From the IMG/VR virus record IMGVR_UViG_3300042922_001018: DNA of 64,000 nucleotides. One strand, given 5' to 3'. This stretch comes from a virus (lineage: Duplodnaviria; Heunggongvirae; Uroviricota; Caudoviricetes). Below the pieces are notes generated by a model. The model searched no databases and was not told where the DNA came from. It saw nothing but the letters and a program-made list of their open reading frames with translations. This document shows, in pieces, positions 50,766 through 63,943 of this stretch. The stretch's first letter is position 1. Each line of letters starts with the position of its first letter. The position numbers and the translations under genes are program-made.

Positions 50766-50768
50766 GTG

Positions 50769-50841: not shown

Positions 50842-50896
50842 AAAGGAAAACGCGGCCCGGTATCTAATCGGACCGCGTCTCCACCCCACGCCCCTT

Positions 50897-50971: not shown

Positions 50972-50997
50972 GCAGGATGTGGAGTTATTGCGAGGGT

Positions 50998-51064: not shown

Positions 51065-51142
51065 GGCCGAATGGTTACAGCCATCCGGTTGTATCGCCCG
51101 CTGTAACGAGCGACATGTACAGCGTACCACACGTCTCAGACA

Positions 51143-51412: not shown

Positions 51413-51443
51413 AGGGCGAGTGTACCACGGTTCCGCCGAAAGC

Positions 51444-51759
51444 GAACACACCTGTAAGCCGGGTTCTGTCCAGGACGCGAGTCCCTGGGCTGCCATCTTT
51501 CTGAAGCGCAGAGCGCCCCGCGGCTTAGCCGCTGCCACTTACCCGTCCATCATCGAGGCACGACGCCCTAGGACTGTTTGTGTTGCACCGGTCCTCACCC
51601 TACTTCTTAGGCTGGGCTTAGTGGTATGAAGGTGTCAAGTTCGGCACGTTAGTCACCGAATCAGTAACCAACGTGCCGACTCTGACACTCCCACATGGAT
51701 GTCGTGTTGGTGCCCGGACTTTCCTCAACGCTTATGCGCTGCGACAGCCTGGTGTGTTC
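51444..51759 (-). ncRNA. rnpB: RNase P RNA with a non-canonical specificity domain
   Basis: P1 GAACACACC/GGTGTGTTC; P2; P3; GAGGAAAGTCCGG and ACAGAACCCGGCTTA (P4); P5 GCACC/GGTGC-AA; P6 CACGAC/GTCGTG; GGGTAAG loop 15. Confidence 0.92.
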
Positions 51760-51837
51760 TGGAGGCGCTGACGGGATTTGAACCCGCGATTGTACGGTTT
51801 TGCAGACCGTTCCCTTTGGCCGCTCGGGCACAACGCC
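51760..51837 (-). tRNA. tRNA-Cys(GCA), CCA encoded
   Basis: ACGGT-CTGCAAA-ACCGT; U73. Confidence 0.95.
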
Positions 51838-51842
51838 GTGTA

Positions 51843-52418
51843 TCAGTCGTCTTCTGACGAACCGAAGAGGGAGGACAGCGGCCCCGGCTGTCCAGATTCA
51901 GGAGGGTTCTCGATGCCATGCACTGACAAGGCCGTGAAGAAGGTACAGATGGCGAACGCGAACGCGAAGATACCCACAGCCATCTTCCTGGCGTCCGAGA
52001 TTTCGCCAAGGGTGTCATCAAGACGCTCGCGGGGGAACTTGTCCCAGGCTTCCGGGTTCTCGGCCTTGTACGTTCTGACGAGCGACATGAGCAGCGAATC
52101 GGTCAACGGGGTGAACTTCTTCACCGCCCGGCTGTCGGCCGTCGGAAGCGCGTACATGCTCGACGCTGAAGGCAGGAGGATGCGTTCCAGCCGCGAGTAG
52201 ACATCACCGGGGCGGTAGATGACGACGGTCGCTGTAGATGATGCCCCAATGCTGGAAGCGTTCGTCGTCATCTTCACCCCGGACTTCGGGTCGATGATGA
52301 CGAACTTCCGGTCGATGACTCGGAGGATGTAGCGGTCTCCGAAGACGTGGTCTGCGGACGTTGCGATGTCCTCCCGGTAGTAAACCCGTTCCAGGCCGGT
52401 GATTTCGAGCTTAGCCAC
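51843..52418 (-). CDS. hypothetical protein with a C-terminal TM helix
   Basis: GTG start after a GGAGG RBS (MAKLEITG). Confidence 0.6.
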   Translation of the reverse strand: MAKLEITGLERVYYREDIATSADHVFGDRYILRVIDRKFVIIDPKSGVKMTTNASSIGASSTATVVIYRPGDVYSRLERILLPSASSMYALPTADSRAVKKFTPLTDSLLMSLVRTYKAENPEAWDKFPRERLDDTLGEISDARKMAVGIFAFAFAICTFFTALSVHGIENPPESGQPGPLSSLFGSSEDD

Positions 52419-52641
52419 GGTCAACCTCCAGTCGGCGAATGACGAGCCAGTACATCGCCTGTTGGAATCCGATGAGAACCGTGAGCGACACAATGGCCAT
52501 CGTGGCGTACGCGAAGATGTCGCCGTCGAGGAGGGACACGAAGTCGAAGATGTACGGCACGCCGCGCACGAGGAGCAGGAACACTGCGCCGATGGCGAAG
52601 AAGACGATACCGGCGCCGAGCGCCTGAAGCTGCTGCTTCAT
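52411..52641 (-). CDS. small membrane protein
   Basis: Two TM helices; coupled to neighbours. Confidence 0.6.
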   Translation of the reverse strand: MKQQLQALGAGIVFFAIGAVFLLLVRGVPYIFDFVSLLDGDIFAYATMAIVSLTVLIGFQQAMYWLVIRRLEVDRG

Positions 52642-52994
52642 CAGTTGACCTTCCCGATGGCGAAGATGACTTCGCGGGCGATGACAAAGAGAACCAGCGG
52701 CACGCCACCGGCAAGAAGGACCAGGCCGATGATGTCCCAGAACGGTCCAGGAACTCGCTCGGTGGCATACACGAGGCTCGCGGTGAGTGTACCCAGAAGG
52801 TACGACACGATGGCTGCGGCCGGGACTGCGGCAAGGACACCGAGCGCTTTCAAGCTAGCCCGGCCCATCGTGTCGGGTTCCCGGTCAGCGTCGGCGTACT
52901 TCAGATACGCCGACCGCTTCCAGTAGGCCAGTGCGGACATCACCCCGATGAGCAGGAAGATGAGCACCGCGTGGACGATGGACATTGCGAACAT
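52641..52994 (-). CDS. membrane protein
   Basis: Three TM helices; TAGGCT-N6-ATG. Confidence 0.65.
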   Translation of the reverse strand: MFAMSIVHAVLIFLLIGVMSALAYWKRSAYLKYADADREPDTMGRASLKALGVLAAVPAAAIVSYLLGTLTASLVYATERVPGPFWDIIGLVLLAGGVPLVLFVIAREVIFAIGKVN

Positions 52995-53039
52995 GTTCCG
53001 AGCCTACCACGAGTCTCGGCCGTCCGCCCAGTCGTTACG

Positions 53040-53113
<74 letters not shown>

Positions 53114-53194
53114 TGGAGCCATCGGTTGTTACGGAGTCCCATGACTTACTCCGGGCGCGAGAGGCGAGCGCTACGCCCCTCGTTTACGCCGTTG

Positions 53195-53265
53195 CTCCCC
53201 GTCCAGGACTCGAACCCAGGCGACTGGGTCCAACGCCCAGCGTGCTGCCATTACACCAACGGGGA
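53195..53265 (-). tRNA. tRNA-Gln(TTG), G at position 33
   Basis: CTGGG-CGTTGGA-CCCAG. Confidence 0.85.
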
Positions 53266-53467
53266 ATAGGGTATCCTGACGAGCTACCCTGGAGCGTTCT
53301 CCGTGACCGTGCAGACCCGAAGGCCCGGACAGTGCGGCAAGAACGACATCGGCACGCCCTCGCCAGAGCGCCTTAGACGCCCTGACTCTCTTTTCGGGGG
53401 CTGCGACCCTGCCTGATGTGTTTTCGCGGCGTACGCCCGCTTGTGGCGCCGTTCCGTGCATCGTGCG

Positions 53468-53540
53468 CTCCCCCGCCTGGACTCGAACCAAGAACAACTG
53501 AACCAGAATCAGCCGTGTTACCGAATTACACCACGGGGGA
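53468..53540 (-). tRNA. tRNA-Gln(CTG)
   Basis: GCTGA-TTCTGGT-TCAGT. Confidence 0.93.
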
Positions 53541-53600
53541 ATAGGAGTGTCCGTGGAATCTGACACTCCTGAAGATGTCCGAGTTTACGGACAAGTTGAG

Positions 53601-53763
53601 GACCGGCGCTCTGCCTGGTTGAGCTACCACCCGCGTGTGCGAGGTGAATCCGCCGACGCCGCTAGCAAGCGTCTTGGCGAACCGTTACGGTCTTCCCGAT
53701 TCATCGTGCGCACGAGTCGTCGTTCAGACCGGAACGCCGGGATTTGAACCCGTATCTCCGGCC
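53601..53763 (-). ncRNA. circularly permuted tRNA-like RNA opened at the anticodon (Y-RNA/YrlA-like order)
   Basis: GGCCGG-AGAT-T arm ... ~100 nt ... TA-GCTC-AACCAGGCA-GAGC-G-CCGGTC. Confidence 0.55.
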
Positions 53764-53765
53764 GG

Positions 53766-53840
53766 TGGGCGTGACGGGACTTGAACCCGCGAATCGTTCC
53801 ATTATGAGTGGAGTGCCTTGACCAGCTTGGCTACACGCCC
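53766..53840 (-). tRNA. tRNA(CAT), probably Ile2
   Basis: TCCA-CTCATAA-TGGA; GGGCGTG acceptor; separate fMet and Met genes are present. Confidence 0.85.
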
Positions 53841-53844
53841 ATGC

Positions 53845-53890
53845 CAACTATACACATTCGTTATCATGTAACAACAAATGTGTATAGTTG
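53845..53890. promoter_or_regulatory. AT-rich 14-bp inverted repeat with a TATAGT box in each arm
   Basis: caactatacacatt...aatgtgtatagttg. Confidence 0.55.
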
Positions 53891-53894
53891 ACGA

Positions 53895-53969
53895 TGGAGC
53901 CGACAGCGGGGATTGAACCCGCGACCCCCGTATTACGAGTACGGTGCTCTACCACTGAGCTATGTCGGC
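53895..53969 (-). tRNA. tRNA-Thr(CGT), CCA encoded
   Basis: CCGTA-CTCGTAA-TACGG. Confidence 0.95.
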
Positions 53970-53972
53970 ACT

Positions 53973-54176
53973 GCCAGGGTGCTACGGGATTCTACCTCTC
54001 CAAGTGTGAGGCCAGCCACCGCCGTCGCGATGACCGCTGCTTTCGCAGTCCGTAGTCGTTCTTACACGGACGAGGGCTTGGAGTCCCTGCCGTCAAACGG
54101 GAGATTACGCAACTGACCTTTCGGTGACGAGCTTTACTGAGACAACCGGAGCCTCAATCCCGCCGTACAACCTGGC
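53973..54176 (-). ncRNA. candidate structured ncRNA between Thr tRNAs
   Basis: Closing helices GCCAGG/CCTGGC and CGGGATT/AATCCCG; GAAA tetraloops; no credible ORF. Confidence 0.45.
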
Positions 54177-54187
54177 TTCCCGTTCTG

Positions 54188-54260
54188 TGCCACCAGCGGG
54201 GTTCGAACCCGAGACCTCGCCCTTACCATGGGCGCGCTCTACCAACTGAGCTATGGCGGC
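54188..54260 (-). tRNA. tRNA-Thr(GGT)
   Basis: CGCCC-ATGGTAA-GGGCG. Confidence 0.9.
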
Positions 54261-54289
54261 ATCGCCCGATTGGGACCGGGCCTATCCTG

Positions 54290-54361
54290 AGCCACCAGTG
54301 AGGATTGAACTCACGACCTCTTCCTTACCAAGGAAGCGCTCTACCACTGAGCTATGGCGGC
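54290..54361 (-). tRNA. tRNA-Thr(GGT), second copy
   Basis: CTTCC-TTGGTAA-GGAAG. Confidence 0.93.
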
Positions 54362-54435
54362 ATGACCCAGCCAGCTAGCCGACCGTCCGGAAGGCTGCCG
54401 CTGGGCGCATGTTCGGGCTACTGCCCGGACTTCAT

Positions 54436-54707
54436 GGTATCAGACAGTGTGCGATTAGGCCAAACACTCTGACGGTAGTACATCCGGCTACGCGGTTACC
54501 AACCCGCTTTCGGTTTCGGAGCGCGTTCGCCGCACGCTCCTACTCGATACGACCGGCCTTCCCCTGAGTCCGTGGTTCAGGGCATCCCGTGGGGTCTGTG
54601 TATGCGACTTCAACGAGCGTGTTGCAACACGCACCGTCCGCGACAAGCGCGGCCCCCTCGTGACTCCTTAGATGATGACGTTCTAGGCCAACATTCTGAC
54701 GGATACC
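54436..54707 (-). ncRNA. candidate structured ncRNA with an internal ~20-nt repeat
   Basis: Ends GGTATC/GATACC; CCGTCAGARTGTT(T)GGCCTA occurs twice. Confidence 0.45.
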
Positions 54708-54708
54708 G

Positions 54709-54777
54709 TGCCGGAGTGGGACTCGAACCCACGCCCTCCAGCCCTTTCAAGGCGGCGCTCCCCTGGAGCTGTCCAGC
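54709..54777 (-). ncRNA. atypical tRNA-Phe(GAA)-like RNA
   Basis: Shrunken D arm, bulged anticodon stem, intact T arm. Confidence 0.6.
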
Positions 54778-54793
54778 TAGACCTTTCAGTCCG

Positions 54794-54867
54794 TACCTGC
54801 GGGGAGGCTTGAACTCCCGACCTCGCGATTATGAGTCGCGCGCTCTCACCAACTGAGCTACACAGGC
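54794..54867 (-). tRNA. tRNA-Met(CAT), elongator
   Basis: CGCGA-CTCATAA-TCGCG. Confidence 0.9.
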
Positions 54868-54899
54868 ATAAGGGCGCGAGCGCCCCCGTGGAGAGGCTA

Positions 54900-55778
54900 T
54901 CACGCCTCGCCAGGTTCCGGTGTCCAGAAGTCCGCGATGAGACCCTTGTGGTCGCTCACCGGCAAATCTCCCAGCTCCGGGTCGTAGAACGTCTCCGAAC
55001 CGAACGTCCGGGCCGCGGCAGGCTGCCCCGCGCTACCCCAAGCCCATTCGTAAGCCATGATGTAGTCGATGCGCCGCTTCGGCGTCTGCTCCGGACGGTA
55101 GATGGAGCCAACCGACTCGAAGGTGCGCTTCGACCAATGATTCACGTCACCTGACGTGTGCCCCGATTGTTCCGGGTCACCGCACTCGTTCCACGCATCC
55201 AACCAGAGCGTCGAATCATCTTCTACACCCAGGTCCAGACCGCGAAGATACCGAACCGTCCGAGATTCGGGTACAGCGTTCAGGTCTCCCGCAAGCAGAA
55301 TGATGGGACGGTGCTGCCGGTGGTGTCCACCGGGCTGACGAGTGAAGATGTCGTGAGCGTTCACGCTCACATGCCGCGCTTCCTTCATCCGGGACTTCTC
55401 GAACCCGGCGCCCCACTTGAAGTGCGCGTTGAAGATGTAGACGGCGCGGCCATCGACTTCCGATTTCGACACGAGTACCGGCACGTTCACGTCCGGCGTC
55501 TGCATCTTCACGTTCAGCTCGTGCACGGCGATGGGGTGACGGGACAGGGTGATGTTCCCGTACTCACCTTTCTTCGTTTCGCCGATGACCTTGTAATCCA
55601 TCCCCAGCTTGAAGCTCAGGACATCACCGACGTAGAAGCCCGCCGCCTCAGGGCCGGGCACTTCCTGAAGGCACAAGAAGTCGAGGTCTTCGAACTTCAG
55701 CGTGTCTACGAGAAGGTCAAGCCGCTCTTTGAGCAGCTTCGGCTCTTTGAGCAGGTTCAGGGTCGCAACGCGTATCAC
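54900..55778 (-). CDS. endonuclease/exonuclease/phosphatase (EEP) family protein
   Basis: VATLNL, LCLQEV, FNAHF, AGDLN, RIDYI, SDH. Confidence 0.9.
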   Translation of the reverse strand: MIRVATLNLLKEPKLLKERLDLLVDTLKFEDLDFLCLQEVPGPEAAGFYVGDVLSFKLGMDYKVIGETKKGEYGNITLSRHPIAVHELNVKMQTPDVNVPVLVSKSEVDGRAVYIFNAHFKWGAGFEKSRMKEARHVSVNAHDIFTRQPGGHHRQHRPIILLAGDLNAVPESRTVRYLRGLDLGVEDDSTLWLDAWNECGDPEQSGHTSGDVNHWSKRTFESVGSIYRPEQTPKRRIDYIMAYEWAWGSAGQPAAARTFGSETFYDPELGDLPVSDHKGLIADFWTPEPGEA

Positions 55779-55810
55779 GTCACGACCCTATCACGAAACT
55801 GCGCCCTACG

Positions 55811-56047
55811 CTACTGAGCGATAGGCTGCGCGGTCTTACGCGCGTGGACTTCGAGCGGCGATTCCGCCGGGAGTCGGGCACCGTACACCTGAGCGTAATC
55901 GGCAGCACGGTCGCGCTCCTCGCGGAGCATGTCCATGTCGTCACGCGTCGCAGGCGTATCGCGAGACTCGATGTAGTTTCGGGTGGCGATGTACGCCTCC
56001 ACAGGGTTGAGCTTTCCGCGCTTCTTCCCTACGCCTTTCAAAGACAT
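55811..56047 (-). CDS. small hypothetical protein
   Basis: AAAGGA RBS; MSLKGVGKKRG... Confidence 0.55.
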   Translation of the reverse strand: MSLKGVGKKRGKLNPVEAYIATRNYIESRDTPATRDDMDMLREERDRAADYAQVYGARLPAESPLEVHARKTAQPIAQ

Positions 56048-56104
56048 GATGAATCCTTTCTGGGGCCAGTCTAGTGGCCGTCGTCGTGCGCTGCGATGCA
56101 GCGC

Positions 56105-56180
56105 TGGTGCCCCCGACCCGAATCGAACGGGCAACCGACGGATTAGAAGGCCGTTGCTCTATCCGTTGAGCTACGGGGGC
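56105..56180 (-). tRNA. tRNA-Arg(TCT), CCA encoded
   Basis: Anticodon loop CTTCTAA. Confidence 0.92.
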
Positions 56181-56193
56181 GTAGAAGAACTTG

Positions 56194-56266
56194 TGCCGAC
56201 TGTGGGACTCGAACCCACAACCCCCGCATTACAAGTGCGGTGCGCTACCAGTTGCGCCAAGTCGGC
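56194..56266 (-). tRNA. tRNA-Thr(TGT)
   Basis: CCGCA-CTTGTAA-TGCGG. Confidence 0.95.
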
Positions 56267-56335
56267 ATGCGACGGGAGGCCTCACCCGCTTGGGGCAACC
56301 TACGCGACCGAAGCCGCCGCTCTTCGGCCGAACCG

Positions 56336-56407
56336 AGCGGATGACGAGATTCGAACTCGCGACCCTCACCTTGGCAAGGTGATGCGCTACCACTGCGCTA
56401 CATCCGC
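56336..56407 (-). tRNA. tRNA-Gly(GCC)
   Basis: TCACC-TTGCCAA-GGTGA. Confidence 0.95.
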
Positions 56408-56452
56408 GTATGCAACTACTCTAGCACGCGCTCGTTGCCCTTCACGTTACTG

Positions 56453-56528
56453 CGGAAGCGGTAGGGGTCGAACCTACAGACCTTCTCGGCACCGGATTAC
56501 GACCGGCTGCTCTCCCCAGCGCGCCTCC
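56453..56528 (-). tRNA. atypical class II tRNA: GTA (Tyr) anticodon on a Ser-like body
   Basis: GGAGGCG/CGCTTCC-G73; reduced D arm; GCCGG-TCGTAAT-CCGGT; variable hairpin. Confidence 0.6.
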
Positions 56529-56608
56529 ACGACTCTCCAACCGGTATCGGTGTCGCTTCTGACGCTGCCTGATTGAACTGCACTTCCATGAGACTCCGTG
56601 GAGTCTTG

Positions 56609-56681
56609 TGGGACCAACGGGGATTGAACCCGTGACCTTTCGATTTTCAGTCGAACGCTCTACCAACTGAGCTACAGCCCC
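56609..56681 (-). tRNA. tRNA-Phe(GAA)
   Basis: TTCGA-CTGAAAA-TCGAA. Confidence 0.95.
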
Positions 56682-56855
56682 ATCCGGCCCGCCCAGCTCA
56701 ACCGCCATGAGCTATCGGGCAGACCTTCCCGTGAACGCGGTGCTTCGCCGCAATGTCCCCGCCTGGGAGCACGAGCACTCCCACCGAGTAAGGTTGCGAG
56801 AGGGGACGGAATCCTCCCACATCCAGACCACGGACCTAAGCCCGTGACCGTAGCG

Positions 56856-56929
56856 TAGCCGAGGGGAGACTTGAACTCCCGACCTTTGCATTATCAGTGC
56901 AACGCTCTAACCAACTGAGCTACACGGCT
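56856..56929 (-). tRNA. tRNA-Ile(GAT)
   Basis: TTGCA-CTGATAA-TGCAA. Confidence 0.93.
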
Positions 56930-57058
56930 GTAGCCAGGGTAGCCTTACGGCTAGCTTCACGAGTCGCCCTGGCGCCGACTCACTACCCTTCTGACCACTC
57001 CGGGTGGGGCGCTCGCAGACTAGGCGTTTGCCTGTTCTCAGCGCTCTCATTCGAGCTG

Positions 57059-57132
57059 TTGCGGGAGGTGGATTTGAACCACCGGCCTCCAGGTTATGAG
57101 CCTGGCGGGCTACCGAGCTGCCCTACCCCGCG
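57059..57132 (-). tRNA. tRNA-fMet(CAT)
   Basis: CGCGGGG start with C1:A72 mismatch; CCAGG-CTCATAA-CCTGG. Confidence 0.9.
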
Positions 57133-57315
57133 TCAAGGTCACACGTGACCTGCTACTGTATTCGTGTCCTGAGCGCCCGGTTCATAACGCCGAGCAGGAC
57201 GTTTTCATTGCGAGGAGTCACCGAGGGCCGCAGCATTACTCGGTAACCCAGTTAGCTGGAGAGCTTACGCCGACGCACCAACTGTTCCTACGTGACCAGT
57301 GTAGCACACTAGTTG

Positions 57316-57388
57316 TGACCCCAGCGGGATTCGAACCCGCGCTAACGCCGTGAAAGGGCGCCGTCCTGGGCCGCTAAACGATGGGGCC
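57316..57388 (-). tRNA. tRNA-Glu(TTC)
   Basis: GCGCC-CTTTCAC-GGCGT. Confidence 0.95.
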
Positions 57389-57570
57389 AGGTGGTTCCCG
57401 AGCGAAGAATCCGGCTCGGGAACCAGTTCGCAGCGACCCCAGCTATCAGCCCACCCAGCGCAGTGAACCTATCCGAGACCGGCGCTCTGCCGGGCTGCTG
57501 ACATTGAGCTTATCACACCGCGAGCGAGACGACAAGCTAAGACACGCCGGAGATGCACTCCGACGCCATG

Positions 57571-57643
57571 TGACCCCAGCGGGATTCGAACCCGCGTTAC
57601 CGCCGTGAGAGGGCGACGTACTAGGCCGCTATACGATGGGGCC
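57571..57643 (-). tRNA. tRNA-Glu(CTC)
   Basis: TCGCC-CTCTCAC-GGCGG. Confidence 0.95.
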
Positions 57644-57665
57644 ATACGAACCGCAGTGCGGTCCT

Positions 57666-58172
57666 TCAGCTCCCCATGTGCGCGTCCACAAGCTCGTCAA
57701 GGAACTCGCGGAGACGGTTACGGGGAACCTTCTCGATACGAGCTGCTCCGGCCTGGAGCTGCTCGTCGAAGTGTTTCAATAGTGCCTCTGCGTCGAGGTG
57801 CAACCGACGCGCCAGCCGAGGCACGTCTTCGTTCTTCTTGTACTCGGCCGGGCCGACGGGGGTCGGCGCGCTATCGGCTGACGCAGCGCTCACGATACGG
57901 ATGCCCCGCAGTCGTGAGAGGCGGTGGTTATACCCCGCCGGTTGCAGCGCGTGTATCGCGTCATTCGTGACGAACCCTAGAAGCATCTTGTCCCGTTGAG
58001 CGGCCCAAGCGGACACCTCGTCGTAGGAGCGAGGGATGCTCAGGTATCGCATGAACTCTGCAACATCAGCGGATACGTGTCTTCCCGCGTACCCTGGGCC
58101 GGGGACGATTCGCCTCCCGTCCAGATGGCCGACGAGGAAGTAAGTCCGCTGGTGCTTAGCTGCAAGAGTCAC
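57666..58172 (-). CDS. hypothetical protein (leaderless)
   Basis: TACACT-N6-GTG; 168 aa. Confidence 0.6.
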   Translation of the reverse strand: MTLAAKHQRTYFLVGHLDGRRIVPGPGYAGRHVSADVAEFMRYLSIPRSYDEVSAWAAQRDKMLLGFVTNDAIHALQPAGYNHRLSRLRGIRIVSAASADSAPTPVGPAEYKKNEDVPRLARRLHLDAEALLKHFDEQLQAGAARIEKVPRNRLREFLDELVDAHMGS

Positions 58173-58325
58173 CGGACCAGTGTATCAAGCCTGTACAGGC
58201 GGGGACGGTACGACATTACGCATCTCCGGTTCGCGGGGCAACCCGCCTGTCAGTTCTATCCGCTTCGAGCGGTTTTCTCATGAGCCTGCGTTTACGCCTG
58301 AATCGTGAGAAAACTCGAAGCGTTG

Positions 58326-58411
58326 CGGAGGGCAAGGGATTTGAACCCTTGTGCGCTTGCACGCTCACCGTTTTCAAGACGGGCACCTTAGGCCAACTCA
58401 GTCAGCCCTCC
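58326..58411 (-). tRNA. tRNA-Ser(TGA)
   Basis: Loop CTTGAAA; long variable arm; G73. Confidence 0.92.
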
Positions 58412-58514
58412 ATGCTTGCGTCCGCGGACCCGCTCAACCCACGATGCTCTGCTGCGTTTCCGCCCTGAAGCTTGTCGTGAACGTCGCGCCCCGCGGACGC
58501 AAGTTGTGACAGTC

Positions 58515-58570
58515 TCGGCAAGAGGATTCGAACCTACTCTTGGGGTAGCTGACCCCACGGCTCCACGCCG
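58515..58570 (-). ncRNA. D-armless tRNA-like RNA
   Basis: CGGCG/TGCCG; TGGGG-TCAGCTA-CCCCA; AGG-TTCGAAT-CCT. Confidence 0.5.
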
Positions 58571-58687
58571 CTACTTTTTCTCGAATCGAACGAGACGCAA
58601 CCAGCACCGAGACTGCAAGAGATTCCAGGAGCCTCTCCACGAGAAGCGCCCTGGAACATACATCTAGGTCTCGCGAATGAGACCCTG

Positions 58688-58776
58688 CGGAGCGAGAGGG
58701 ATTTGAACCCTCGATGCCCTTGCGGGCATACCACCTTTCCAGGGTGGCGCACTAGGCCGGACTATGCGACCGCTCC
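58688..58776 (-). tRNA. tRNA-Ser(GGA)
   Basis: CCACC-CTGGAAA-GGTGG; long variable arm. Confidence 0.95.
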
Positions 58777-58946
58777 AGGCTCCGACCTCCCCGGCAGATT
58801 GAACCGCCAGTAACCCGTTGTCGGAATCACGGGGATTTTGGACCTGGCACCAGACCCAAGAAAATGAGGGGCACAAACCATGTGCCAACCCTTGTCTTTC
58901 CCATCGCTTTCTTCGCTACGCGTACGCTTCACGATGAGGGTGTCAA

Positions 58947-59005
58947 GACCGCCCCCGAATCGAACGGGGAACATCCTCCGTGAGTATGAAGCCTCTGACA
59001 GCGTC
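58947..59005 (-). ncRNA. short T-arm-containing tRNA-like fragment
   Basis: CCCCG-TTCGATT-CGGGG followed by GCGGTC, which pairs with the 5' GACGC. Confidence 0.35.
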
Positions 59006-59016
59006 ATACCCTCTAC

Positions 59017-59155
59017 CCGGTAGTGGGTGCCGGACTCGAACCGAACTCCTAAGAGCGCGCATTGTTCCTAAAACCGGCCATGTCGTGAGGAACGCCTCCC
59101 CGCGACAGGACCAGCCCAATGGTGCCGGGCGCCTGCCTGTTCTACCCTCTACCGG
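59017..59155 (-). ncRNA. enlarged tRNA-like RNA (long acceptor + T arm + ~90-nt core)
   Basis: CCGGTAGAGGGT/ACCCACTACCGG; TCGG-TTCGAGT-CCGG. Confidence 0.5.
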
Positions 59156-59199
59156 CAGCCACCGCACGGAAGAGCGACCAACCTGCGTGATGACTGTCG

Positions 59200-59272
59200 T
59201 ACCCCGACTCGGATTCGAACCGAGAACCTCCGGTGTTTGAAGCCGTCGCCTCTGCCATTGGGCTACCAGGGT
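59200..59272 (-). tRNA. tRNA-Leu(CAA), short variable arm
   Basis: Loop TTCAAAC; Leu-type D arm GCCCAATGGCAGAGGC. Confidence 0.8.
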
Positions 59273-59317
59273 GTATGAGACAACTTTACAGGATGTCTCA
59301 GTCTGTTGTCAAGTCGG

Positions 59318-59701
59318 TTACCACCAGACCCGGACGACGTACTTTCCGTGAGGAAGTTCGCCCTTGCTGATGAGGTCGGCAAGGATGTAGTCCGGCTCAG
59401 GGGCCGAACGGATGAGCTTGATTTCCTCGCTACGGTCAGCGGGCGACGCCGCGTCCAGCCATCGTTGGAGGCTGTCGAACCCGGAGTATTCGCGCTCCTC
59501 TTCGAGGTTCGCGATGAGCTGCTCCACCATGTCCTCGTCCATGTCGTAGACGACGTGTGAATCGTTGGGGAGCATATCGCCCGTCTGCTGACCGATGTAC
59601 TTCCGCCCGTAGAAGCGGGTAGCGATGGCGTCGAGAGTGTCGGGGCCGTCGTGGTCCAGCATGTCCATGATGAACACGTTCTCTTGCTGCGGTGTATGCA
59701 C
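59318..59701 (-). CDS. acidic hypothetical protein
   Basis: 127 aa ending GKYVVRVWW; TAGACT-N6-GTG. Confidence 0.7.
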   Translation of the reverse strand: MHTPQQENVFIMDMLDHDGPDTLDAIATRFYGRKYIGQQTGDMLPNDSHVVYDMDEDMVEQLIANLEEEREYSGFDSLQRWLDAASPADRSEEIKLIRSAPEPDYILADLISKGELPHGKYVVRVWW

Positions 59702-59740
59702 GCGGCTAGTCTACATCATGAAAACGACTTGCGTCAGACG

Positions 59741-59829
59741 CGGAGCGAGAGGGATTTGAACCCTCGGTTCCCTTACGGGAACACCACCTTAGCAGGGTGG
59801 CGCACTAGGCCGGACTATGCGACCGCTCC
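59741..59829 (-). tRNA. tRNA-Ser(GCT)
   Basis: CCACC-CTGCTAA-GGTGG; long variable arm. Confidence 0.95.
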
Positions 59830-59883
59830 ATTCGGCTGGATTAAGCGCCAGCCCGCTGTGTGGATTCCAACAGCAGAATCTCG

Positions 59884-59956
59884 TACCCCGCCCCGGACTC
59901 GAACCGGGAACTCCCAGATTTTAAGTCCGTTGCCTCTGCCGTTGGGCTAGCGGGGC
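59884..59956 (-). tRNA. tRNA-Leu(TAA), short variable arm
   Basis: CGGA-CTTAAAA-TCTG. Confidence 0.88.
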
Positions 59957-60406
59957 TTAGTCGCCTCCGCCACCACCTCCGCCGCCACCACCTCCACCGC
60001 CGTCGCCACCCGACGAACCTCCAGTGTCGCCGCCATAAGAACTGGGCGAGTCGTAGCTGGGGGTGTCGGAGTAACTCGGAGTATCGGACTGGGGGCGCGG
60101 GTTGTTGTCGTAGCTGCTGGTAGTAGCGAGGAAGGCGACGGATGCTGCTCCCGCCGATGCTCCCCCGTCCCCACTGTCATTGCGGCGTTCCTCGCGAAGA
60201 CGCGCGCGGGTGAGAGGAGCCTCAGCCGGTGCGGTACGCGAGACGGTTGCGACCGGGGCACTGGGCGTGATGCGAGGCATCGCTTCGGTCATTGGGGCAG
60301 CGGTTTCTGTCGTCGCGGTCTTCCGTCTGGCGCGTACGACCAGGAGGACGATGACGACGATTGCGACGAGGACAAGTGCCCCTCCGATGATGAACTCTGG
60401 CTGCAT
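59957..60406 (-). CDS. single-TM protein with a Ser/Gly-rich tail
   Basis: N-terminal TM; poly-Gly C-terminus; TAAGAT-N6-ATG. Confidence 0.7.
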   Translation of the reverse strand: MQPEFIIGGALVLVAIVVIVLLVVRARRKTATTETAAPMTEAMPRITPSAPVATVSRTAPAEAPLTRARLREERRNDSGDGGASAGAASVAFLATTSSYDNNPRPQSDTPSYSDTPSYDSPSSYGGDTGGSSGGDGGGGGGGGGGGGGD

Positions 60407-60429
60407 GGTGCTATCTTAGCACCTCTGTG

Positions 60430-60502
60430 TGCCCGCGGCCGGATTTGAACCGGCGACCTACCGATTAGGAGTCGGTCGCTCTATCCGCTGAGCTACGCAG
60501 GC
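60430..60502 (-). tRNA. tRNA-Arg(CCT)
   Basis: ACCGA-CTCCTAA-TCGGT. Confidence 0.95.
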
Positions 60503-60814
60503 TTAGCCTTTGCTGATGCGATTGTAGAACGCTTCCAGCTCGTCGGGACTGTACGTGTGCCACACATCGAAGCCGAGAGCGCCCGCGGTCTGGAACACAG
60601 CGAAGGTCGTTCCGACTGCCATCATGATGGCGATGGCACCTACCGCCATGCCGATGAGTGCGAAACCGGGGTGCGAGCGTTCGCGCCTCGCGATGAAGAG
60701 CGAGACCGTGCTGACGATGAACCCGACGAATGGGACGAAGGCCAAGGTCAACCCGACGACGCTTGTCAGGTTCGCGTCCTGAAGCTTAGGCTTCGGTGTG
60801 GCTACCGTTGTCAT
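60503..60814 (-). CDS. small membrane protein (DUF4190-like)
   Basis: Two TM helices around RRERSHPGFA; TACCCT-N6-ATG. Confidence 0.6.
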   Translation of the reverse strand: MTTVATPKPKLQDANLTSVVGLTLAFVPFVGFIVSTVSLFIARRERSHPGFALIGMAVGAIAIMMAVGTTFAVFQTAGALGFDVWHTYSPDELEAFYNRISKG

Positions 60815-60843
60815 GGGGCTAGGGTACCACATGGGTTAGCGAG

Positions 60844-60934
60844 CGGAGCGGGTGGGATTTGAACCCACGGAACGGGATGAACCGTTCACCTGATTTCGAA
60901 TCAAGCGCACTCGGCCGGACTATGCGACCGCTCC
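60844..60934 (-). tRNA. tRNA-Ser(CGA)
   Basis: CTTGA-TTCGAAA-TCAGG; long variable arm. Confidence 0.93.
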
Positions 60935-61039
60935 ATAGGGCAAGGACTCCTTAGGTAGCGACCCCAGGAGGTTGAGACTTCCGCACAGGCCTCGCCAGCC
61001 CCATGCTCCCACCCGAAGGCAGGCTCTCGAAGTTGTTTC

Positions 61040-61118
61040 CGCCCCGAGGGTGGACTTGAACCACCGACCCTCCGCACCAACTGGGGGTGTTCCGCCGTCA
61101 CGAACTTGCAGCGGGGAC
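61040..61118 (-). ncRNA. atypical tRNA-like RNA (irregular acceptor and anticodon arm)
   Basis: D arm GTTC/GAAC; T arm GGTGG-TTCAAGT-CCACC; CCCCG/CGGGG. Confidence 0.55.
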
Positions 61119-61227
61119 AGCATCCGGGAACCTCCCGGAACGCAGTTTCCTGCGCGTAGAGGTCAGTGAGTTGTTCGCAGGTTGAACGCGTATTGCCTGC
61201 GACCGCTTCTCTGCATCAGCGGTACGT

Positions 61228-61317
61228 CACGAACCGGACAGGCTACCCAGCCAGTCGTTTTACCAAGCCGTCTATGTGGCACAGGCGGGGACTCGAACCC
61301 CTTGCATCCGGTTCTCG
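61228..61317 (-). ncRNA. permuted tRNA-like RNA (YrlA-like order) abutting the tmRNA 3' end
   Basis: GAACCGGA...TCCGGTTC closing stem enclosing T arm GGGG-TTCGAGT-CCCC, a closed acceptor-like hairpin and a D-like segment. Confidence 0.55.
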
Positions 61318-61701
61318 TGGAGATGGGGGGAATCGAACCCCCGTCCATTGTCATCTTTCCAGGCCTTCTACGAGCGTATCCTCTTGTTCTTCCTGTCCGT
61401 CGCGGCGTTGGAGGCACCGGAGCGCGGGGACACCACACCCTCATACTCAGTACCGCCGAGTGTGAGACTCGGTACTGCGCCTGTGTCTTGGGTTTGATAC
61501 CGGGCCGTCCAGGTGTTCAGGCTACCTGATTGACGGTGCGGCAGACCTCATTGAGGCCGTCGCGGCTTACGCTGCGAGGGCGAGGTCGTTGCGAGTTGCG
61601 TTGGCATCTCTTGGTGGACTGGCATTGATGCGGGGTTACCAGACCAATCCCCGGCTCGCTTCTCCTCGAAGCAACTGACGATGTCGAAACCGGTCATCCC
61701 C
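61318..61701 (-). ncRNA. ssrA: tmRNA; tag peptide ANATRNDLALAA
   Basis: 5' GGGGATGACCGGTTTCGAC; 3' GGACGGGGGTTCGATTCCCCCCATCTCCA; G3:U70; internal tag ORF ending ALAA-TAA. Confidence 0.96.
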
Positions 61702-61827
61702 AGTCGTGACCTGCCGAAGCGGGTCACTGGTTGAGAAACAGGACAAGTTCGTTTACACAGGCCTCGTCACGCCTCGATACAACTCATCCCCGGCCGTTTC
61801 TCCTGACCGTTGAGGGACTTCGTTTCG

Positions 61828-61899
61828 CACGCCTGCCTGGACTCGAACCAAGAACAAAGGTACCAGAAACCTCCGTGTTGCCAATTACACCACAAGCGT
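61828..61899 (-). tRNA. tRNA-Gln(CTG), second divergent copy
   Basis: GAGGT-TTCTGGT-ACCTT. Confidence 0.85.
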
Positions 61900-61944
61900 A
61901 TAGCGCCGAAGCGCTGTCATGCATCCGATATCTCGTATCGGAAA

Positions 61945-62098
61945 CCGTTGAGCTACATCTCGTTCTCGGAGAAGCTGCGCGAACCTCTCTGGCCGATGTC
62001 ACGGACCCGAACCGTACGCCACCATCATCGACTGTCTCTTAGAACGAGCGGGCGAGGAGTTGAACCCACCGTCTCCCGAGCGTGCATCGGGTGCTCTC
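61945..62098 (-). ncRNA. circularly permuted tRNA-like RNA opened in the D loop (CAC at the anticodon position)
   Basis: GAGC-A-CCCGA-TGCACGC-TCGGG-AGAC-T arm-CGCTCGTTCT ... 74 nt ... AGAACGAGATG-TA-GCTC-AACGG. Confidence 0.65.
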
Positions 62099-62101
62099 TA
62101 G

Positions 62102-62175
62102 GGTGAATAACGGGATTCGAACCCGCGACATCCGCGACCACAACGCGGCGCTCTACCGACTGAGCTATATCCACC
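62102..62175 (-). tRNA. tRNA-His(GTG)
   Basis: G-1:C73; CCGCG-TTGTGGT-CGCGG. Confidence 0.95.
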
Positions 62176-62178
62176 ATG

Positions 62179-62276
62179 CGCCGTTGCGGCTACCTGCTCC
62201 GCGGGAGTCGAACCCAACGGACAGCGGGATTTGAACCCGTAGCGACAACAGCCTTCGCGCTGCTCGCCCCGTGGCG
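62179..62276 (-). ncRNA. RNA with two tandem T-arm hairpins
   Basis: CGGG-TTCAAAT-CCCG and GGG-TTCGACT-CCC enclosed by GCTAC/GTAGC and CGCC/GGCG. Confidence 0.5.
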
Positions 62277-62415
62277 AGTTGTTCAGCGCTGACCGAACCT
62301 GGGGTGCATGCTGCGTCAGGTTCAGAAGAAGTGAGGGACGGGCGGCATAACGCGTACTTGGAAGCGTCCGTGCACAGACTTGTATTCCGACCGCCAGAGG
62401 CCGACCCCGCCCCCG

Positions 62416-62488
62416 TGGACCCAGAGGGACTTGAACCCCCGACATCCTCGGTGTAAACGAGGCGCTCTACCAACTGAGCTATAAGTCC
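62416..62488 (-). tRNA. tRNA-Val(TAC)
   Basis: CCTCG-TTTACAC-CGAGG. Confidence 0.92.
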
Positions 62489-62571
62489 ATTCGAGTGTCC
62501 GATGCAAGCACCGTCAGACGCACTCGACGCCTGTGACCGCTTATTTCTAGGGTGCAGTTCACTATACCCCG

Positions 62572-62757
62572 TACCCTCTGCGGGACTCGAACCCGCACCT
62601 TGTATCCAGGCTTCGAAAACGCGCTTCCCTGCCGGGGGCTAAGGTTCCCCAACCTCGTACCTTCTGGGTAGCGAGGCCCGGTCCCGGTGCATCCGCAACG
62701 TTCCTGGAATGACACCCCACCGTTTTTGGGCCGCTCTTCCTTTTGAGCTAAGAAGGT
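62572..62757 (-). ncRNA. tRNA scaffold with a ~110-nt inserted domain
   Basis: Acceptor ACCTTCT/AGAGGGT-A; D arm GCTC-AAAAGGAA-GAGC; T arm GCGGG-TTCGAGT-CCCGC; insert closed by TCCAGG/CCTGGA. Confidence 0.6.
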
Positions 62758-63105
62758 ATGCAAGTGGGACTCGCCCGGCTCAGGCTTCACCCACATCCGC
62801 CGTCCCGGACCCATTTCGCACCGAACAGTGGCGGGATTCCTTCGTTTGTCGAACACGCGAAGTGTTCAGTCGCCAGACGACTGGCTGCTCTACCCCGAGC
62901 CAGGGCCGTGGTTCTTGCGGTGCCACGGTACCGTCGGGGCGCCAACCCCTGCTCCTGGCGAATCAGGCATGATGTGAGCGTACAGCATTCATAGCGAGTA
63001 CGCAAGTGGCAAGGCCCGTTAGCCCTCGGGTAGCGAGACGCGTCCCGCCGACTTGCGGAAGCAACGCCGCGCATCTTTTGCTGAGTTGCCCCTCAGCGAG
63101 CCTTG

Positions 63106-63177
63106 CTCCCCCGACTGGATTCGAACCAGTGACGCATCGGTTAACAGCCGAACGCTCTGCCGCTGAGCTACAGGGGA
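63106..63177 (-). tRNA. tRNA-Asn(GTT)
   Basis: TCGG-CTGTTAA-CCGA. Confidence 0.94.
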
Positions 63178-63402
63178 ATAGTGGTGGACGACCCTCACGC
63201 CGCCCGGCCTCACACCGGGACTGAGGCTTGCTTCGCAAGCTGCCTCTCTTCAACGTTGGGCTACGGTCTAGGGGTCGCCCGGTGACGGCTGTTTGTGTCA
63301 TAGGGGCCGTCGGTCCCCATCTCGGGAGAGTCTAGAATCTCCGAGCACGGCGCGTACGCGACGCTGTGTTACAAGCGCCACGGTTTGTATGCCGTCGTAC
63401 AG

Positions 63403-63475
63403 TGGACCTGAGGGGAATCGAACCCCTGACCTCCTCGATGCGAACGAGGCGCGCTACCAACTGCGCTACAGGCCC
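63403..63475 (-). tRNA. tRNA-Ala(CGC)
   Basis: G3:U70; CCTCG-TTCGCAT-CGAGG. Confidence 0.94.
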
Positions 63476-63629
63476 GTATGGGCCGACCCGTTGACTGCCC
63501 TCCGGTTTACACACCGGTTCGTGTGGCTGCCCTCCCTCAGTCGCGCGTACGGGTCAAGCCGCGCGGGTGTTCTTTCCTACAGCCGAGGGGAGCGCGAGGC
63601 GCTCTTGCTTCCGCTCCGAGGAGCGGCAG

Positions 63630-63712
63630 TGCCGGACACGGGACTCGAACCCGCACGAGCTAATGCTCACTGCGACCTGAACGCAGCGCGTCTACCATTC
63701 CGCCAATCCGGC
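63630..63712 (-). tRNA. tRNA-Leu(CAG)
   Basis: CTGCG-TTCAGGT-CGCAG; long variable arm. Confidence 0.95.
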
Positions 63713-63870
63713 ATAGCAGCGAGCGCCCGAAGACACCCACCGCCACGACGAGCCACCTGTTCTAGCCAGTCCTCTACTGACCCCGGAGTGGTAGCTCCGT
63801 AACCCGCTCGTCATCGGGGTCACAGCTCCTTTCTAGATGCCTCGGGCGAGACTATGCTGTGACTGCTCGG

Positions 63871-63943
63871 TACCCCGCATCGGACTTGAACCGATAACCT
63901 TCCGACCCTAAATCGGACGCCTCTTCCATTGGGCTAGCAGGGC
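63871..63943 (-). tRNA. tRNA-Leu(TAG), short variable arm
   Basis: TCCGA-TTTAGGG-TCGGA; Leu-type D arm. Confidence 0.88.

What the first reader, a model, noticed from the sequence alone, without database searches (positions are those of the whole stretch)
61945..62098. Circularly permuted tRNA opened in the D loop
Seen on the minus strand, in order: 3' D strand GAGC, anticodon arm CCCGA-TGCACGC-TCGGG, T arm, acceptor 3' strand CGCTCGTTCT, a 74-nt linker, acceptor 5' strand AGAACGAGATG, then TA-GCTC-AACGG. All four stems close only in permuted order. The linker holds another T-like hairpin, ACGG-TTCGGGT-CCGT. Known: permuted tRNA genes are described from some algae and an archaeon; I know of none in bacterial elements. 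Inference: it matures (via RNase P and perhaps a ligase) to a two-piece or religated tRNA-Val(CAC)-like RNA, or acts as a closed tRNA mimic.
Basis: partly seen in the sequence, partly recalled or inferred. Interest (0 to 1): 0.88.

Follow-up and report, generated by a model that had tools for sequence, protein, structure and literature searches.

The report
D-loop-permuted tRNA-like RNA gene
Between two ordinary tRNA genes of a giant actinobacterial plasmid- or phage-like element lies a conserved RNA gene that folds like a tRNA only if its two halves are read in swapped order, a layout not reported for bacteria in the reviews read here; its function is unknown.

Summary
Observation confirmed. 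The spacer between tRNA-His and tRNA-Gln folds as a cloverleaf opened in the D loop (tRNA position 20/21). Its acceptor helix is closed by a 74-nt structured insert.

It is not a decayed pseudogene. Two orthologues were found on other metagenomic contigs (78-86% identical in the core, 23-42% in the 3' trailer). Across the three, 98% of the proposed pair cells stay paired, and six pairs show compensatory double changes: three in the acceptor-like helix, one in the T-like stem, two in a linker hairpin. RNAalifold finds the same helices unaided. Junction lengths (1, 4, 0, 2 nt) and the conserved tRNA core nucleotides match tRNA.

It is not a normal tRNA-Val. It has G33, G37, no A73, a 6-bp T stem with an 8-nt loop, a helix running past 1-72, and no special likeness to the array's own Val tRNAs.

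Best reading: a non-decoding tRNA mimic released by processing of the flanking tRNAs. Main rival: RNase P/RNase Z opening into a two-piece, CCA-tailed tRNA-like RNA, as shown for M. smegmatis YrlA.

No expression data were available. Only three family members were found. Earlier notes of this scan on this same element flag other permuted, YrlA-like tRNA mimics in the array, not this topology; a look-up by sequence found no look-alike on other DNA.

The parts
62101..62174 (-). Flanking tRNA-His(GTG). Its 3' processing site lies 3 nt upstream of the element.
   Evidence: ARAGORN; Rfam tRNA 67.6 bits; 92-97% identical in the orthologues.
62093..62097 (-). A21 plus the 3' strand of the D stem (GAGC, positions 22-25). 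The conserved core starts here.
   Evidence: Invariant in the 3 orthologues. Pairs with GCTC at 61953-61950 in the MFE fold and in the RNAalifold consensus.
62075..62091 (-). Anticodon-like arm: 5-bp stem CCCGA/TCGGG and 7-nt loop TGCACGC (G33, C34 A35 C36, G37).
   Evidence: All 17 nt are invariant in the three lineages, whereas the anticodon stem of the neighbouring tRNA-Gln has changed.
62051..62070 (-). T-like arm: 6-bp stem and 8-nt loop TTCAACTC. It follows a 4-nt variable region (62074-62071).
   Evidence: One compensatory pair (G-C to A-U) and one U-G to C-G change. The same register comes from RNAalifold.
62041..62050 (-). 3' strand of the acceptor-like helix: positions 66-72 = 62050-62044; 73-75 = 62043-62041. 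C74 is invariant.
   Evidence: three compensatory pairs (2-71, 1-72, 0-73) and three one-sided compatible changes.
61967..62040 (-). 74-nt structured linker capping the acceptor helix. A 7-bp stem (62032-62026 with 61998-61992) encloses a T-like hairpin (62015-62001). A second hairpin lies at 61989-61969.
   Evidence: 72-82% identical between lineages, against 23-42% for the trailer. Two compensatory pairs in the second hairpin and a U-G to C-G change in the 7-bp stem.
61956..61966 (-). 5' strand of the acceptor-like helix: positions -2 to 7, with a bulged A at 61958 in the window only.
61943..61955 (-). U8 A9, the D-stem 5' strand GCTC (10-13), and the D-loop part AACGGTT (A14, A15, C16, G18, G19, U20). 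The conserved core ends here.
   Evidence: Invariant in the 3 orthologues. Sequence identity collapses immediately downstream.
61900..61942 (-). 3' trailer with two hairpins (61942-61924; 61915-61902, UUCG loop). The sequence is not conserved, but two or three hairpins are present in every lineage.
61827..61899 (-). Flanking tRNA-Gln(CTG). The RNase P site at its 5' end sets the latest possible 3' end of the element's transcript.
   Evidence: ARAGORN; Rfam 53.2 bits.

Best explanation
A real RNA gene under selection, with a core of about 155 nt at window 62097-61943, minus strand. It derives from tRNA and is circularly permuted at D-loop position 20/21.

Gene order: D-stem 3' strand, anticodon-like arm, T-like arm, acceptor 3' strand, 74-nt structured cap, acceptor 5' strand, U8-A9, D-stem 5' strand, D-loop GG.

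Inferred steps (none shown):
- It is transcribed with the tRNA array.
- It is freed by the cuts that mature tRNA-His (RNase Z or 3' trimming) and tRNA-Gln (RNase P).
- It folds into a tRNA-like L shape with an open D loop.
- It acts as a non-decoding tRNA mimic, a ligand or decoy for a factor that reads the invariant anticodon-like arm and the elbow. It is not a translating tRNA-Val.
For: Structure (shown):
- On three orthologues, 42 proposed pairs are 98.4% paired. Six are compensatory double changes and six are one-sided compatible changes. 0 of 500 shuffles reach the observed values, and slid controls are 38-47% paired.
- RNAalifold predicts the same helices unaided.
- The junction linkers (1, 4, 0, 2 nt) equal those of tRNA.
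- U8, A14, A15, G18, G19, A21, Y48, G53, T54, T55, C56, A58 and C61 are all present and invariant.
- Conservation starts exactly at A21 and ends at U20. The trailer is 23-42% identical against 78-86% for the core.
- Indels of 2, 1 and 1 nt exclude protein coding.

Non-decoding mimic (inferred):
- G33 and G37 are invariant. The T stem has 6 bp and the T loop 8 nt. Position 73 is U/G/G.
- The helix continues past 1-72, and the 0-73 pair covaries.
- The cap is itself conserved and covaries, so it is unlikely to be discarded.
- The anticodon arm is more conserved than that of the neighbouring real tRNA-Gln.
- The re-joined sequence is not specially similar to the array's Val tRNAs.
- Precedent: YrlA is a permuted tRNA mimic with a closed acceptor (bioRxiv 10.1101/312249; PMC4201824).
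Against:
- Only three sequences, that is two independent contrasts. The D stem and the anticodon arm never vary, so their pairing rests on sequence and context alone.
- Some features fit a processed tRNA just as well: the exact 7-bp acceptor abutting U8, the invariant C74 after N73 (the pattern seen in most of the array's CCA-less tRNAs), and the presence of A35, C36, G3-C70 and G45 (Val determinants, PMC9976931).
- No binding partner is identified.
Confidence: 0.5

Rival explanations
1. Two-piece tRNA(-like) RNA. RNase P cuts 5' of position 1 (or of position -1), RNase Z or exonucleases trim to N73, and CCA is added. The cap is excised. What remains is a 55-nt piece (21-76) and a 20-nt piece (1-20), held together by the acceptor and D stems. 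It may be valylated and may even read GUG.
For: - The 7-bp acceptor is kept by covariation and abuts U8-A9 and the T stem.
- N73-C74 follows the pattern of most of the array's tRNAs; 32 of 36 lack an encoded CCA.
- A35, C36, G3-C70 and G45 are present (PMC9976931).
- No canonical Val(CAC) was seen in the array parts available, although GAC and TAC are there.
- M. smegmatis YrlA, with a closed 7-bp acceptor, is cut by RNase P and receives CCA in vivo (PMC4201824).
- An unverified note says the element encodes a CCA-adding enzyme.
Against: - G33 is invariant, position 37 is G, and A73 is absent.
- L004 has G4-U69. A G-U at the 3rd or 4th acceptor pair impairs valylation (PMC9976931).
- The acceptor plus T stack is 13 bp and the T loop has 8 nt.
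- The 0-73 pair covaries.
- A cap destined for removal would not need conserved, covarying hairpins.
- Gly(TCC) and Gly(CCC) are equally unseen, so the 'missing isoacceptor' argument is weak.
Confidence: 0.22
2. The tRNA-like halves are only a processing handle. RNase Z and RNase P excise the 74-77-nt cap (mini acceptor/T-arm module plus hairpin), and that cap is the functional product.
For: - The cap is conserved and covaries.
- It resembles a 7-bp acceptor plus T-arm 'top half'.
- A first-reader note suggests that tRNAs act as punctuation for cargo RNAs in this array.
Against: - Ordinary flanking tRNAs would serve as handles just as well.
- The tRNA-like part (84-91% identical), and above all the invariant anticodon arm, which RNase P and RNase Z do not read, is more conserved than the cap (72-82%).
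Confidence: 0.1
3. An algal- or archaeal-type permuted tRNA gene. The ends are joined into a circular intermediate (for example by RtcB or an Rnl ligase), and the acceptor is then opened to give a contiguous tRNA.
For: - It has the same gene order and the same junction (20/21) as C. merolae tRNA-Leu(TAA), and the intervening sequence falls within the known range of 1-74 bp (PMC3978253).
- An unverified note reports RtcB elsewhere on the element.
Against: - There is no leader-trailer helix or BHB motif. The 5' leader is 3 nt of tRNA-His trailer in two lineages and an unrelated 31 nt in the third. The trailers fold on themselves.
- RNase Z and RNase P leave 5'-P and 3'-OH ends, which RtcB does not join (established knowledge).
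- The non-canonical features listed above also apply.
Confidence: 0.05
4. Non-functional debris: the 3' part of one decayed tRNA gene and the 5' part of the next, left over from a tandem duplication.
For: - The array is littered with T-arm-like fragments.
- The covariance model R1 gives weak hits (20-40 bits) at many tandem tRNA junctions.
- ARAGORN accepts 38% of random chimeras.
Against: - Compensatory changes keep three helices intact.
- The core is 78-86% identical where the neighbouring trailer has diverged to 23-42%.
- 7/7 acceptor pairing arises by chance in only 0.6% of combinations.
Confidence: 0.03

Closest known systems
YrlA / bacterial Y RNA tRNA-like module (Rfam RF02553; Chen et al. 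2014, PMC4201824; bioRxiv 10.1101/312249)
   Same: - A bacterial, tRNA-derived, circularly permuted mimic.
- The T arm precedes the D-arm nucleotides.
- The acceptor stem is closed instead of ending in CCA.
- The tRNA tertiary nucleotides are retained.
- The actinobacterial member, with a 7-bp acceptor, is opened by RNase P and CCA-tailed.
   Different: - YrlA is opened at the anticodon loop. It has no anticodon hairpin, and its ends form a stem leading to the Ro60-binding helix.
- Here the opening is in the D loop, and a complete, invariant anticodon-like hairpin is present.
- The acceptor cap is a 74-nt three-way junction, not a small loop.
- No Ro60-binding motif was seen, and there is no Rfam hit over the element.
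Circularly permuted tRNA genes of Cyanidioschyzon merolae, green algae and Thermofilum pendens; type I junction 20/21 (Soma 2014, PMC3978253)
   Same: [quoted passage not shown]
- The junction is in the D loop at 20/21.
- The acceptor strands are joined by an intervening sequence (up to 74 bp in the known cases).
   Different: - The known genes carry a BHB motif at the termini and need the splicing endonuclease and a ligase. They yield canonical tRNAs.
- Here there is no BHB motif, the context is bacterial, the intervening sequence is conserved and structured, and the re-joined RNA is non-canonical (G33, 8-nt T loop).
Two-piece tmRNA from permuted ssrA genes (alpha-proteobacteria, cyanobacteria; discussed in PMC3978253)
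   Same: - A bacterial precedent for a permuted tRNA-like gene whose product stays in two base-paired pieces after the segment between the acceptor strands is excised.
   Different: - No tag reading frame or pseudoknots.
- ARAGORN calls no tmRNA here.
- A normal one-piece tmRNA lies about 200 nt downstream.
tRNA array units with tmRNA and structured RNAs on Mycobacterium plasmids and phages (Morgado and Vicente 2018, PMC5966550)
   Same: - The genomic setting: a dense array of tRNA genes plus a tmRNA on a mobile element with actinobacterial-type tRNAs.
   Different: - A term search of that paper turned up no permuted or split tRNA-like genes.

Membership tests
Circularly permuted tRNA gene (algal/archaeal type) | The 3' half is encoded upstream of the 5' half on the same strand, and a cloverleaf forms only after the swap. 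| tested here: met
   All four helices form in the permuted order, and three orthologues agree.
Circularly permuted tRNA gene (algal/archaeal type) | A bulge-helix-bulge motif formed by the leader and trailer at the junction, cut by the splicing endonuclease. | tested here: not met
   The leader is 3 nt (window, L002) or an unrelated 31 nt (L004). The trailers fold into their own hairpins, and there is no conserved leader-trailer helix.
Circularly permuted tRNA gene (algal/archaeal type) | A circular intermediate and a mature contiguous canonical tRNA. | not testable with these tools
Canonical elongator tRNA-Val(CAC) | U33, a purine at 37 (A in the array's Val tRNAs) and a 7-nt anticodon loop. 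| tested here: not met
   The loop is TGCACGC, with G33 and G37, invariant in all three. The array's Val tRNAs have U33 and A37.
Canonical elongator tRNA-Val(CAC) | Bacterial valine identity set: A35, C36, A73, G3-C70, U4-A69 (PMC9976931). | tested here: inconclusive
   A35, C36 and G3-C70 are present. Position 73 is U/G/G, and 4-69 is A-U / A-U / G-U.
Canonical elongator tRNA-Val(CAC) | A 7-bp acceptor, a 5-bp T stem and a 7-nt T loop (a 12-bp coaxial stack). | tested here: not met
   The acceptor has 7 bp (a bulged A in the window) plus 1-3 extra pairs. The T stem has 6 bp and its loop 8 nt. The register is supported by a compensatory change.
tRNA fold (L-shape core) | A four-way junction with linkers of 2 (positions 8-9), 1 (position 26), 4-5 (variable) and 0 nt, and the nucleotides U8, A14, R15, G18, G19, A21, Y48, G53, T54, T55, C56, A58, C61. 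| tested here: met
   Columns of alignment A3. All listed nucleotides are present and invariant except Y48 (C/C/U).
YrlA (RF02553) | The ends pair as the anticodon-position stem leading to a Ro60-binding helix. The D arm is a closed hairpin. A match to the Rfam model is expected. | tested here: not met
   There is no YrlA match over 61943-62097 even at E <= 10. The only weak hit (20.8 bits, E = 0.096) lies at 62128-62261, upstream. The anticodon arm is a closed hairpin and the D arm is open.
YrlA (RF02553) | Genomic linkage to rsr (Ro60/TROVE). | not tested
   Only 64 kb plus 1.8 kb of a 450-kb contig was readable. No TROVE gene turned up in the 10 ORFs scanned or in the notes.
Two-piece tmRNA (permuted ssrA) | A tag-peptide reading frame and pseudoknots after the 5' acceptor strand; detection by ARAGORN. 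| tested here: not met
   ARAGORN and Rfam report only the standard tmRNA at 61317-61701.
Tymovirus tRNA-like structure (RF00233) | A score at or above the Rfam gathering threshold (40 bits). | tested here: not met
   14.9 bits, E = 1.8. This is a chance-level match driven by the CAC hairpin.

The most novel reading that the evidence does not exclude
The element is opened by RNase P and RNase Z and CCA-tailed into a two-piece tRNA that is aminoacylated. That would be a split or permuted, chargeable tRNA encoded by a bacterial mobile element, with no precedent in the reviews read here. Its nicked D loop and G33 might make it a charged decoy that escapes or absorbs tRNA-targeting host nucleases, or a donor of valine outside normal decoding.
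Probability: 0.15. Interest if true: 0.9.

Novelty: new variant of a known kind. Interest (0 to 1): 0.64.

Why it matters
Permuted tRNA genes are known only from a few algae and one archaeon, where they depend on the splicing endonuclease. The known bacterial permuted tRNA mimics (YrlA) are opened at the anticodon and have no anticodon hairpin.

This element shows a third solution. It is a bacterial, mobile-element-borne tRNA-like RNA with a full and unusually invariant anticodon arm, a break in the D loop, and a structured cap on the acceptor end.

If it is expressed, it gives a directly testable case of two things:
- how tRNA-processing enzymes handle a permuted substrate in bacteria;
- what giant plasmid- or phage-like elements do with the many tRNA-derived RNAs packed into their arrays. 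Candidates are decoys against tRNA-targeting defences, ligands for repair enzymes, or split tRNAs.

It also warns that standard tRNA and Rfam scans leave such genes unannotated.

Tried and rejected
Searches for more relatives, all negative or uninformative:
- Exact and degenerate DNA patterns in IMG/VR, JGI metagenomes (only the contig already in hand) and GTDB genomes.
- All 25 hits to the T-loop...D-arm pattern were ordinary neighbouring tRNA genes.
- blastn of the core against GenBank phages and PLSDB plasmids found nothing relevant.
- Covariance model R1 found only the three orthologues (169-180 bits) in the window plus 26 loci. It found nothing above 40 bits in 5 + 151 actinobacterial genomes.
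- Neighbouring proteins (Exo_endo_phos and the 103-aa and 116-aa ORFs) led to the two orthologous contigs. Their other hits were contigs that stop short of the element, or unrelated phage contexts.

Tests that proved weak:
- ARAGORN on the re-joined sequence, because 38% of random chimeras pass.
- Single-sequence MFE: z = 0.53 for the window, and the MFE folds of L002 and L004 do not give the cloverleaf.

Ideas rejected or left open:
- Two-piece tmRNA, tymovirus TLS (E = 1.8), YrlA membership and protein coding (frame-breaking indels) are rejected.
- An anticodon-loop/linker kissing pair (ACGC with GCGU, 4 bp) cannot be tested, because both sides are invariant.
- 'Val(CAC) is the one missing isoacceptor' is weak. 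Gly(TCC) and Gly(CCC) are also unseen in the parts available.

Full report
**Setting.** The window carries 36 tRNA genes and a tmRNA, all on the minus strand, between 49966 and 64000. GC content is about 62%. The window's own protein P0001 lies on a 450,372-bp contig of JGI metagenome 3300042934. The 64-kb window has no DNA match in GenBank phages and no match beyond single tRNA genes in PLSDB plasmids. Its tRNAs are 90-97% identical to those of Tsukamurella, Nocardia, Arthrobacter and Streptomyces. Proteins in the window include T2SS E/F-type, UvrD-type and GHKL ATPases. The finding lies in the 201-nt spacer between tRNA-His (62174-62101) and tRNA-Gln (61899-61827). A standard tmRNA lies about 200 nt further downstream.

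**Observation.** The MFE fold of the 201-nt spacer recovers four helices:
- the D stem (GAGC with GCUC);
- the anticodon hairpin;
- a T-like hairpin;
- an 8-bp helix joining 62048-62041 to 61966-61959.

The folding energy is no better than that of shuffles (z = 0.53), so thermodynamics alone proves nothing. Re-joining the halves in silico gives an ARAGORN call of tRNA-Val(CAC) for the window and both orthologues at default settings. I tested how much this is worth. 483 of 1260 chimeras made from the 5' 19 nt of one array tRNA and the rest of another also pass. A sharper control is acceptor pairing: unrelated 5' and 3' acceptor strands of the array's tRNAs pair 7/7 in only 8 of 1250 combinations.

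**Relatives.** An Exo_endo_phos gene inside the array (54900-55778) has 60-73% identical homologues on an NCBI metagenome contig (L002, 43.7 kb) and an ENA contig (L004, 395 kb). Both carry syntenic arrays and a homologous His-[element]-Gln-tmRNA segment. Pairwise identity by segment:

| Segment | Identity |
|---|---|
| Flanking tRNAs | 90-97% |
| Element core | 78-86% |
| tRNA-like parts of the core | 79-91% |
| Linker | 72-82% |
| 3' trailer | 23-42% |

Conservation begins exactly at the A before GAGC (tRNA position 21) and ends at GGTT (positions 18-20). L004 has an unrelated 31-nt insert between tRNA-His and that A. Indels of 2, 1 and 1 nt inside the core rule out a coding explanation.

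**Covariation.** I wrote a 42-pair structure on the MAFFT alignment A3, which was not fitted to any structure, and counted it.
- 98.4% of cells are paired.
- Six pairs carry changes on both sides. Three are acceptor pairs: 2-71 (C-G/U-A/C-G), 1-72 (A-U/G-C/G-C) and 0-73 (A-U/C-G/C-G). One is a T-stem pair (G-C/A-U/A-U). Two are in the linker hairpin.
- Six more pairs change compatibly on one side.
- The only two unpaired cells are at the distal end of the extended acceptor helix.
- No shuffle out of 500 reaches the observed values. Sliding the partners by 1-3 columns drops pairing to 38-47%, with at most one compensatory pair.
- RNAalifold, given only the alignment, returns the same D, anticodon, T-like, acceptor-like and linker helices. 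It differs only inside the linker.

The D stem and the anticodon arm never vary, so they carry no covariation signal. With three sequences there are only two independent contrasts, so the case is strong for three helices and circumstantial for the other two.

**Anatomy in tRNA terms**.
- The junction linkers are 2 nt (U8, A9), 1 nt (R26), 4 nt (variable region) and 0 nt (T stem to acceptor), as in tRNA.
- U8, A14, A15, G18, G19, A21, Y48, G53, T54, T55, C56, A58 and C61 are all present.
- The break lies between positions 20 and 21. This is the 'type I' junction of C. merolae tRNA-Leu(TAA) (PMC3978253).

Departures from a working tRNA:
- G33 and G37 in an invariant loop UGCACGC.
- A 6-bp T stem with an 8-nt loop, a register fixed by the compensatory change.
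- A helix that continues for 1-3 pairs beyond 1-72.
- A bulged A in the window's acceptor.
- Position 73 is U/G/G, where the array's own Val tRNAs have A.

The re-joined sequence is no closer to the array's Val tRNAs than to any other tRNA. Of the bacterial valine determinants (PMC9976931), A35, C36, G3-C70 and G45 are present. A73, U4-A69 and G20 are not.

The lack of an encoded CCA is uninformative, because 32 of 36 array tRNAs lack it. Most of these, like the element, carry a C after the discriminator.

**The cap.** The 74 nt between the acceptor strands form a three-way junction:
- a 7-bp stem enclosing about 10 unpaired nt and a T-like hairpin (loops TTCGGGT, TTCAAGC and TTCGAGT in the three lineages). 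It looks like an acceptor/T-arm 'top half';
- a 6-7-bp hairpin with two compensatory pairs.

This conservation argues that the cap belongs to the functional RNA, or is itself a product. It does not look like a disposable spacer.

**Mechanism.** What is shown: a selected RNA structure with permuted tRNA topology. What is inferred:
- Co-transcription with the array. No promoter- or terminator-like site lies inside the element.
- Release by the cuts that mature tRNA-His and tRNA-Gln.
- An L-shaped fold with an open D loop.

I favour a non-decoding mimic (0.5), for three reasons: the anticodon-loop anomalies, the extended and capped acceptor helix, and the 17-nt anticodon arm. That arm is invariant even though the acceptor helix has turned over, and the anticodon stem of the neighbouring tRNA-Gln has changed in the same lineages. 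This points to a partner that reads the anticodon arm, and RNase P, RNase Z and the CCA enzyme do not.

The main rival (0.22) is opening by RNase P and RNase Z, with CCA addition, to give a two-piece tRNA-like RNA. This has a direct actinobacterial precedent: M. smegmatis YrlA, whose closed acceptor has 7 bp, is cut by RNase P in vitro and in vivo and gains CCA (PMC4201824; bioRxiv 10.1101/312249).

Lesser rivals are:
- excision of the cap as the product (0.1);
- algal-type circularisation (0.05), which lacks a BHB motif and fits the expected end chemistry poorly;
- debris (0.03), which the covariation contradicts.

**Comparison and novelty.** The closest known things are YrlA and the algal/archaeal permuted tRNA genes.
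- YrlA is permuted at the anticodon and lacks an anticodon hairpin. There is no Rfam match over this element.
- The algal/archaeal genes share the order and the junction, but are BHB-dependent and yield canonical tRNAs.
- Reviews list no permuted tRNA gene in Bacteria (PMC4033280). Full-text searches found none newer.
- Model R1 finds only the three orthologues among all loci fetched and 156 actinobacterial genomes.

I therefore class the element as a new variant of a known kind: tRNA-derived permuted mimics.

**Leads from earlier notes.** Other readers' notes on the same element report YrlA-like permuted RNAs elsewhere in the array, and RtcB and a CCA-adding enzyme 24-57 kb beyond the window. 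I could not verify those genes.

Noticed in passing
window 58412-58503 (-); L002:7766-7862; L004:6397-6493: A bacterial small SRP (4.5S) RNA match lies inside the tRNA array in three lineages (40.4, 43.3 and 47.4 bits; gathering threshold 40). In the window and L002 it abuts tRNA-Ser(TGA). An SRP RNA carried by a mobile element is unusual.
   Followed up: partly
window 62128-62261 (-): A weak YrlA (RF02553) match (20.8 bits, E = 0.096) joins a T arm in the Val-His spacer to the D arm of tRNA-His. That spacer (62179-62276) holds two tandem T-loop hairpins. The match is probably an artefact of T-before-D order at a tRNA junction.
   Followed up: no
window 49966-50038 and 50897-50969 (-); L002:750-825 and 14331-14404; L004:10998-11069 and 15180-15252; also L008:8937-9009 and 9605-9677, L010:10198-10270: ARAGORN reports 'tRNA-???' genes whose anticodon is given as 2 or 4 bases, which suggests anticodon loops of abnormal length. 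They recur in the related arrays.
   Followed up: no
window, whole array 49966-63943 (-): 32 of 36 array tRNAs lack an encoded CCA, and most have a C directly after the discriminator. This implies dependence on a CCA-adding enzyme.
   Followed up: partly
L004:3817-3847: A 31-nt insert between tRNA-His and the element contains a second GAGAGC and a TTCGTTCTCG stretch. The latter resembles the window's acceptor 3' strand. It may be a remnant of an older or duplicated copy.
   Followed up: no
window 54900-55778 (-); L001:4965-5276 and 6111-6461: Protein genes are embedded in the tRNA array and conserved between lineages: an Exo_endo_phos nuclease/phosphatase (60-73% identical) and small ORFs of 103 and 116 aa. 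The 116-aa protein has a 35% identical homologue in Microbacterium phage Pumpernickel (gp214).
   Followed up: partly
L038:133-912: In one related Logan contig a 259-aa ORF is inserted just after the tmRNA. The other lineages have only short spacers and RNA genes there.
   Followed up: no
L004:3375-3446: Rfam finds a tRNA (50.9 bits) that ARAGORN missed, at the position of the window's tRNA-Val(TAC).
   Followed up: no
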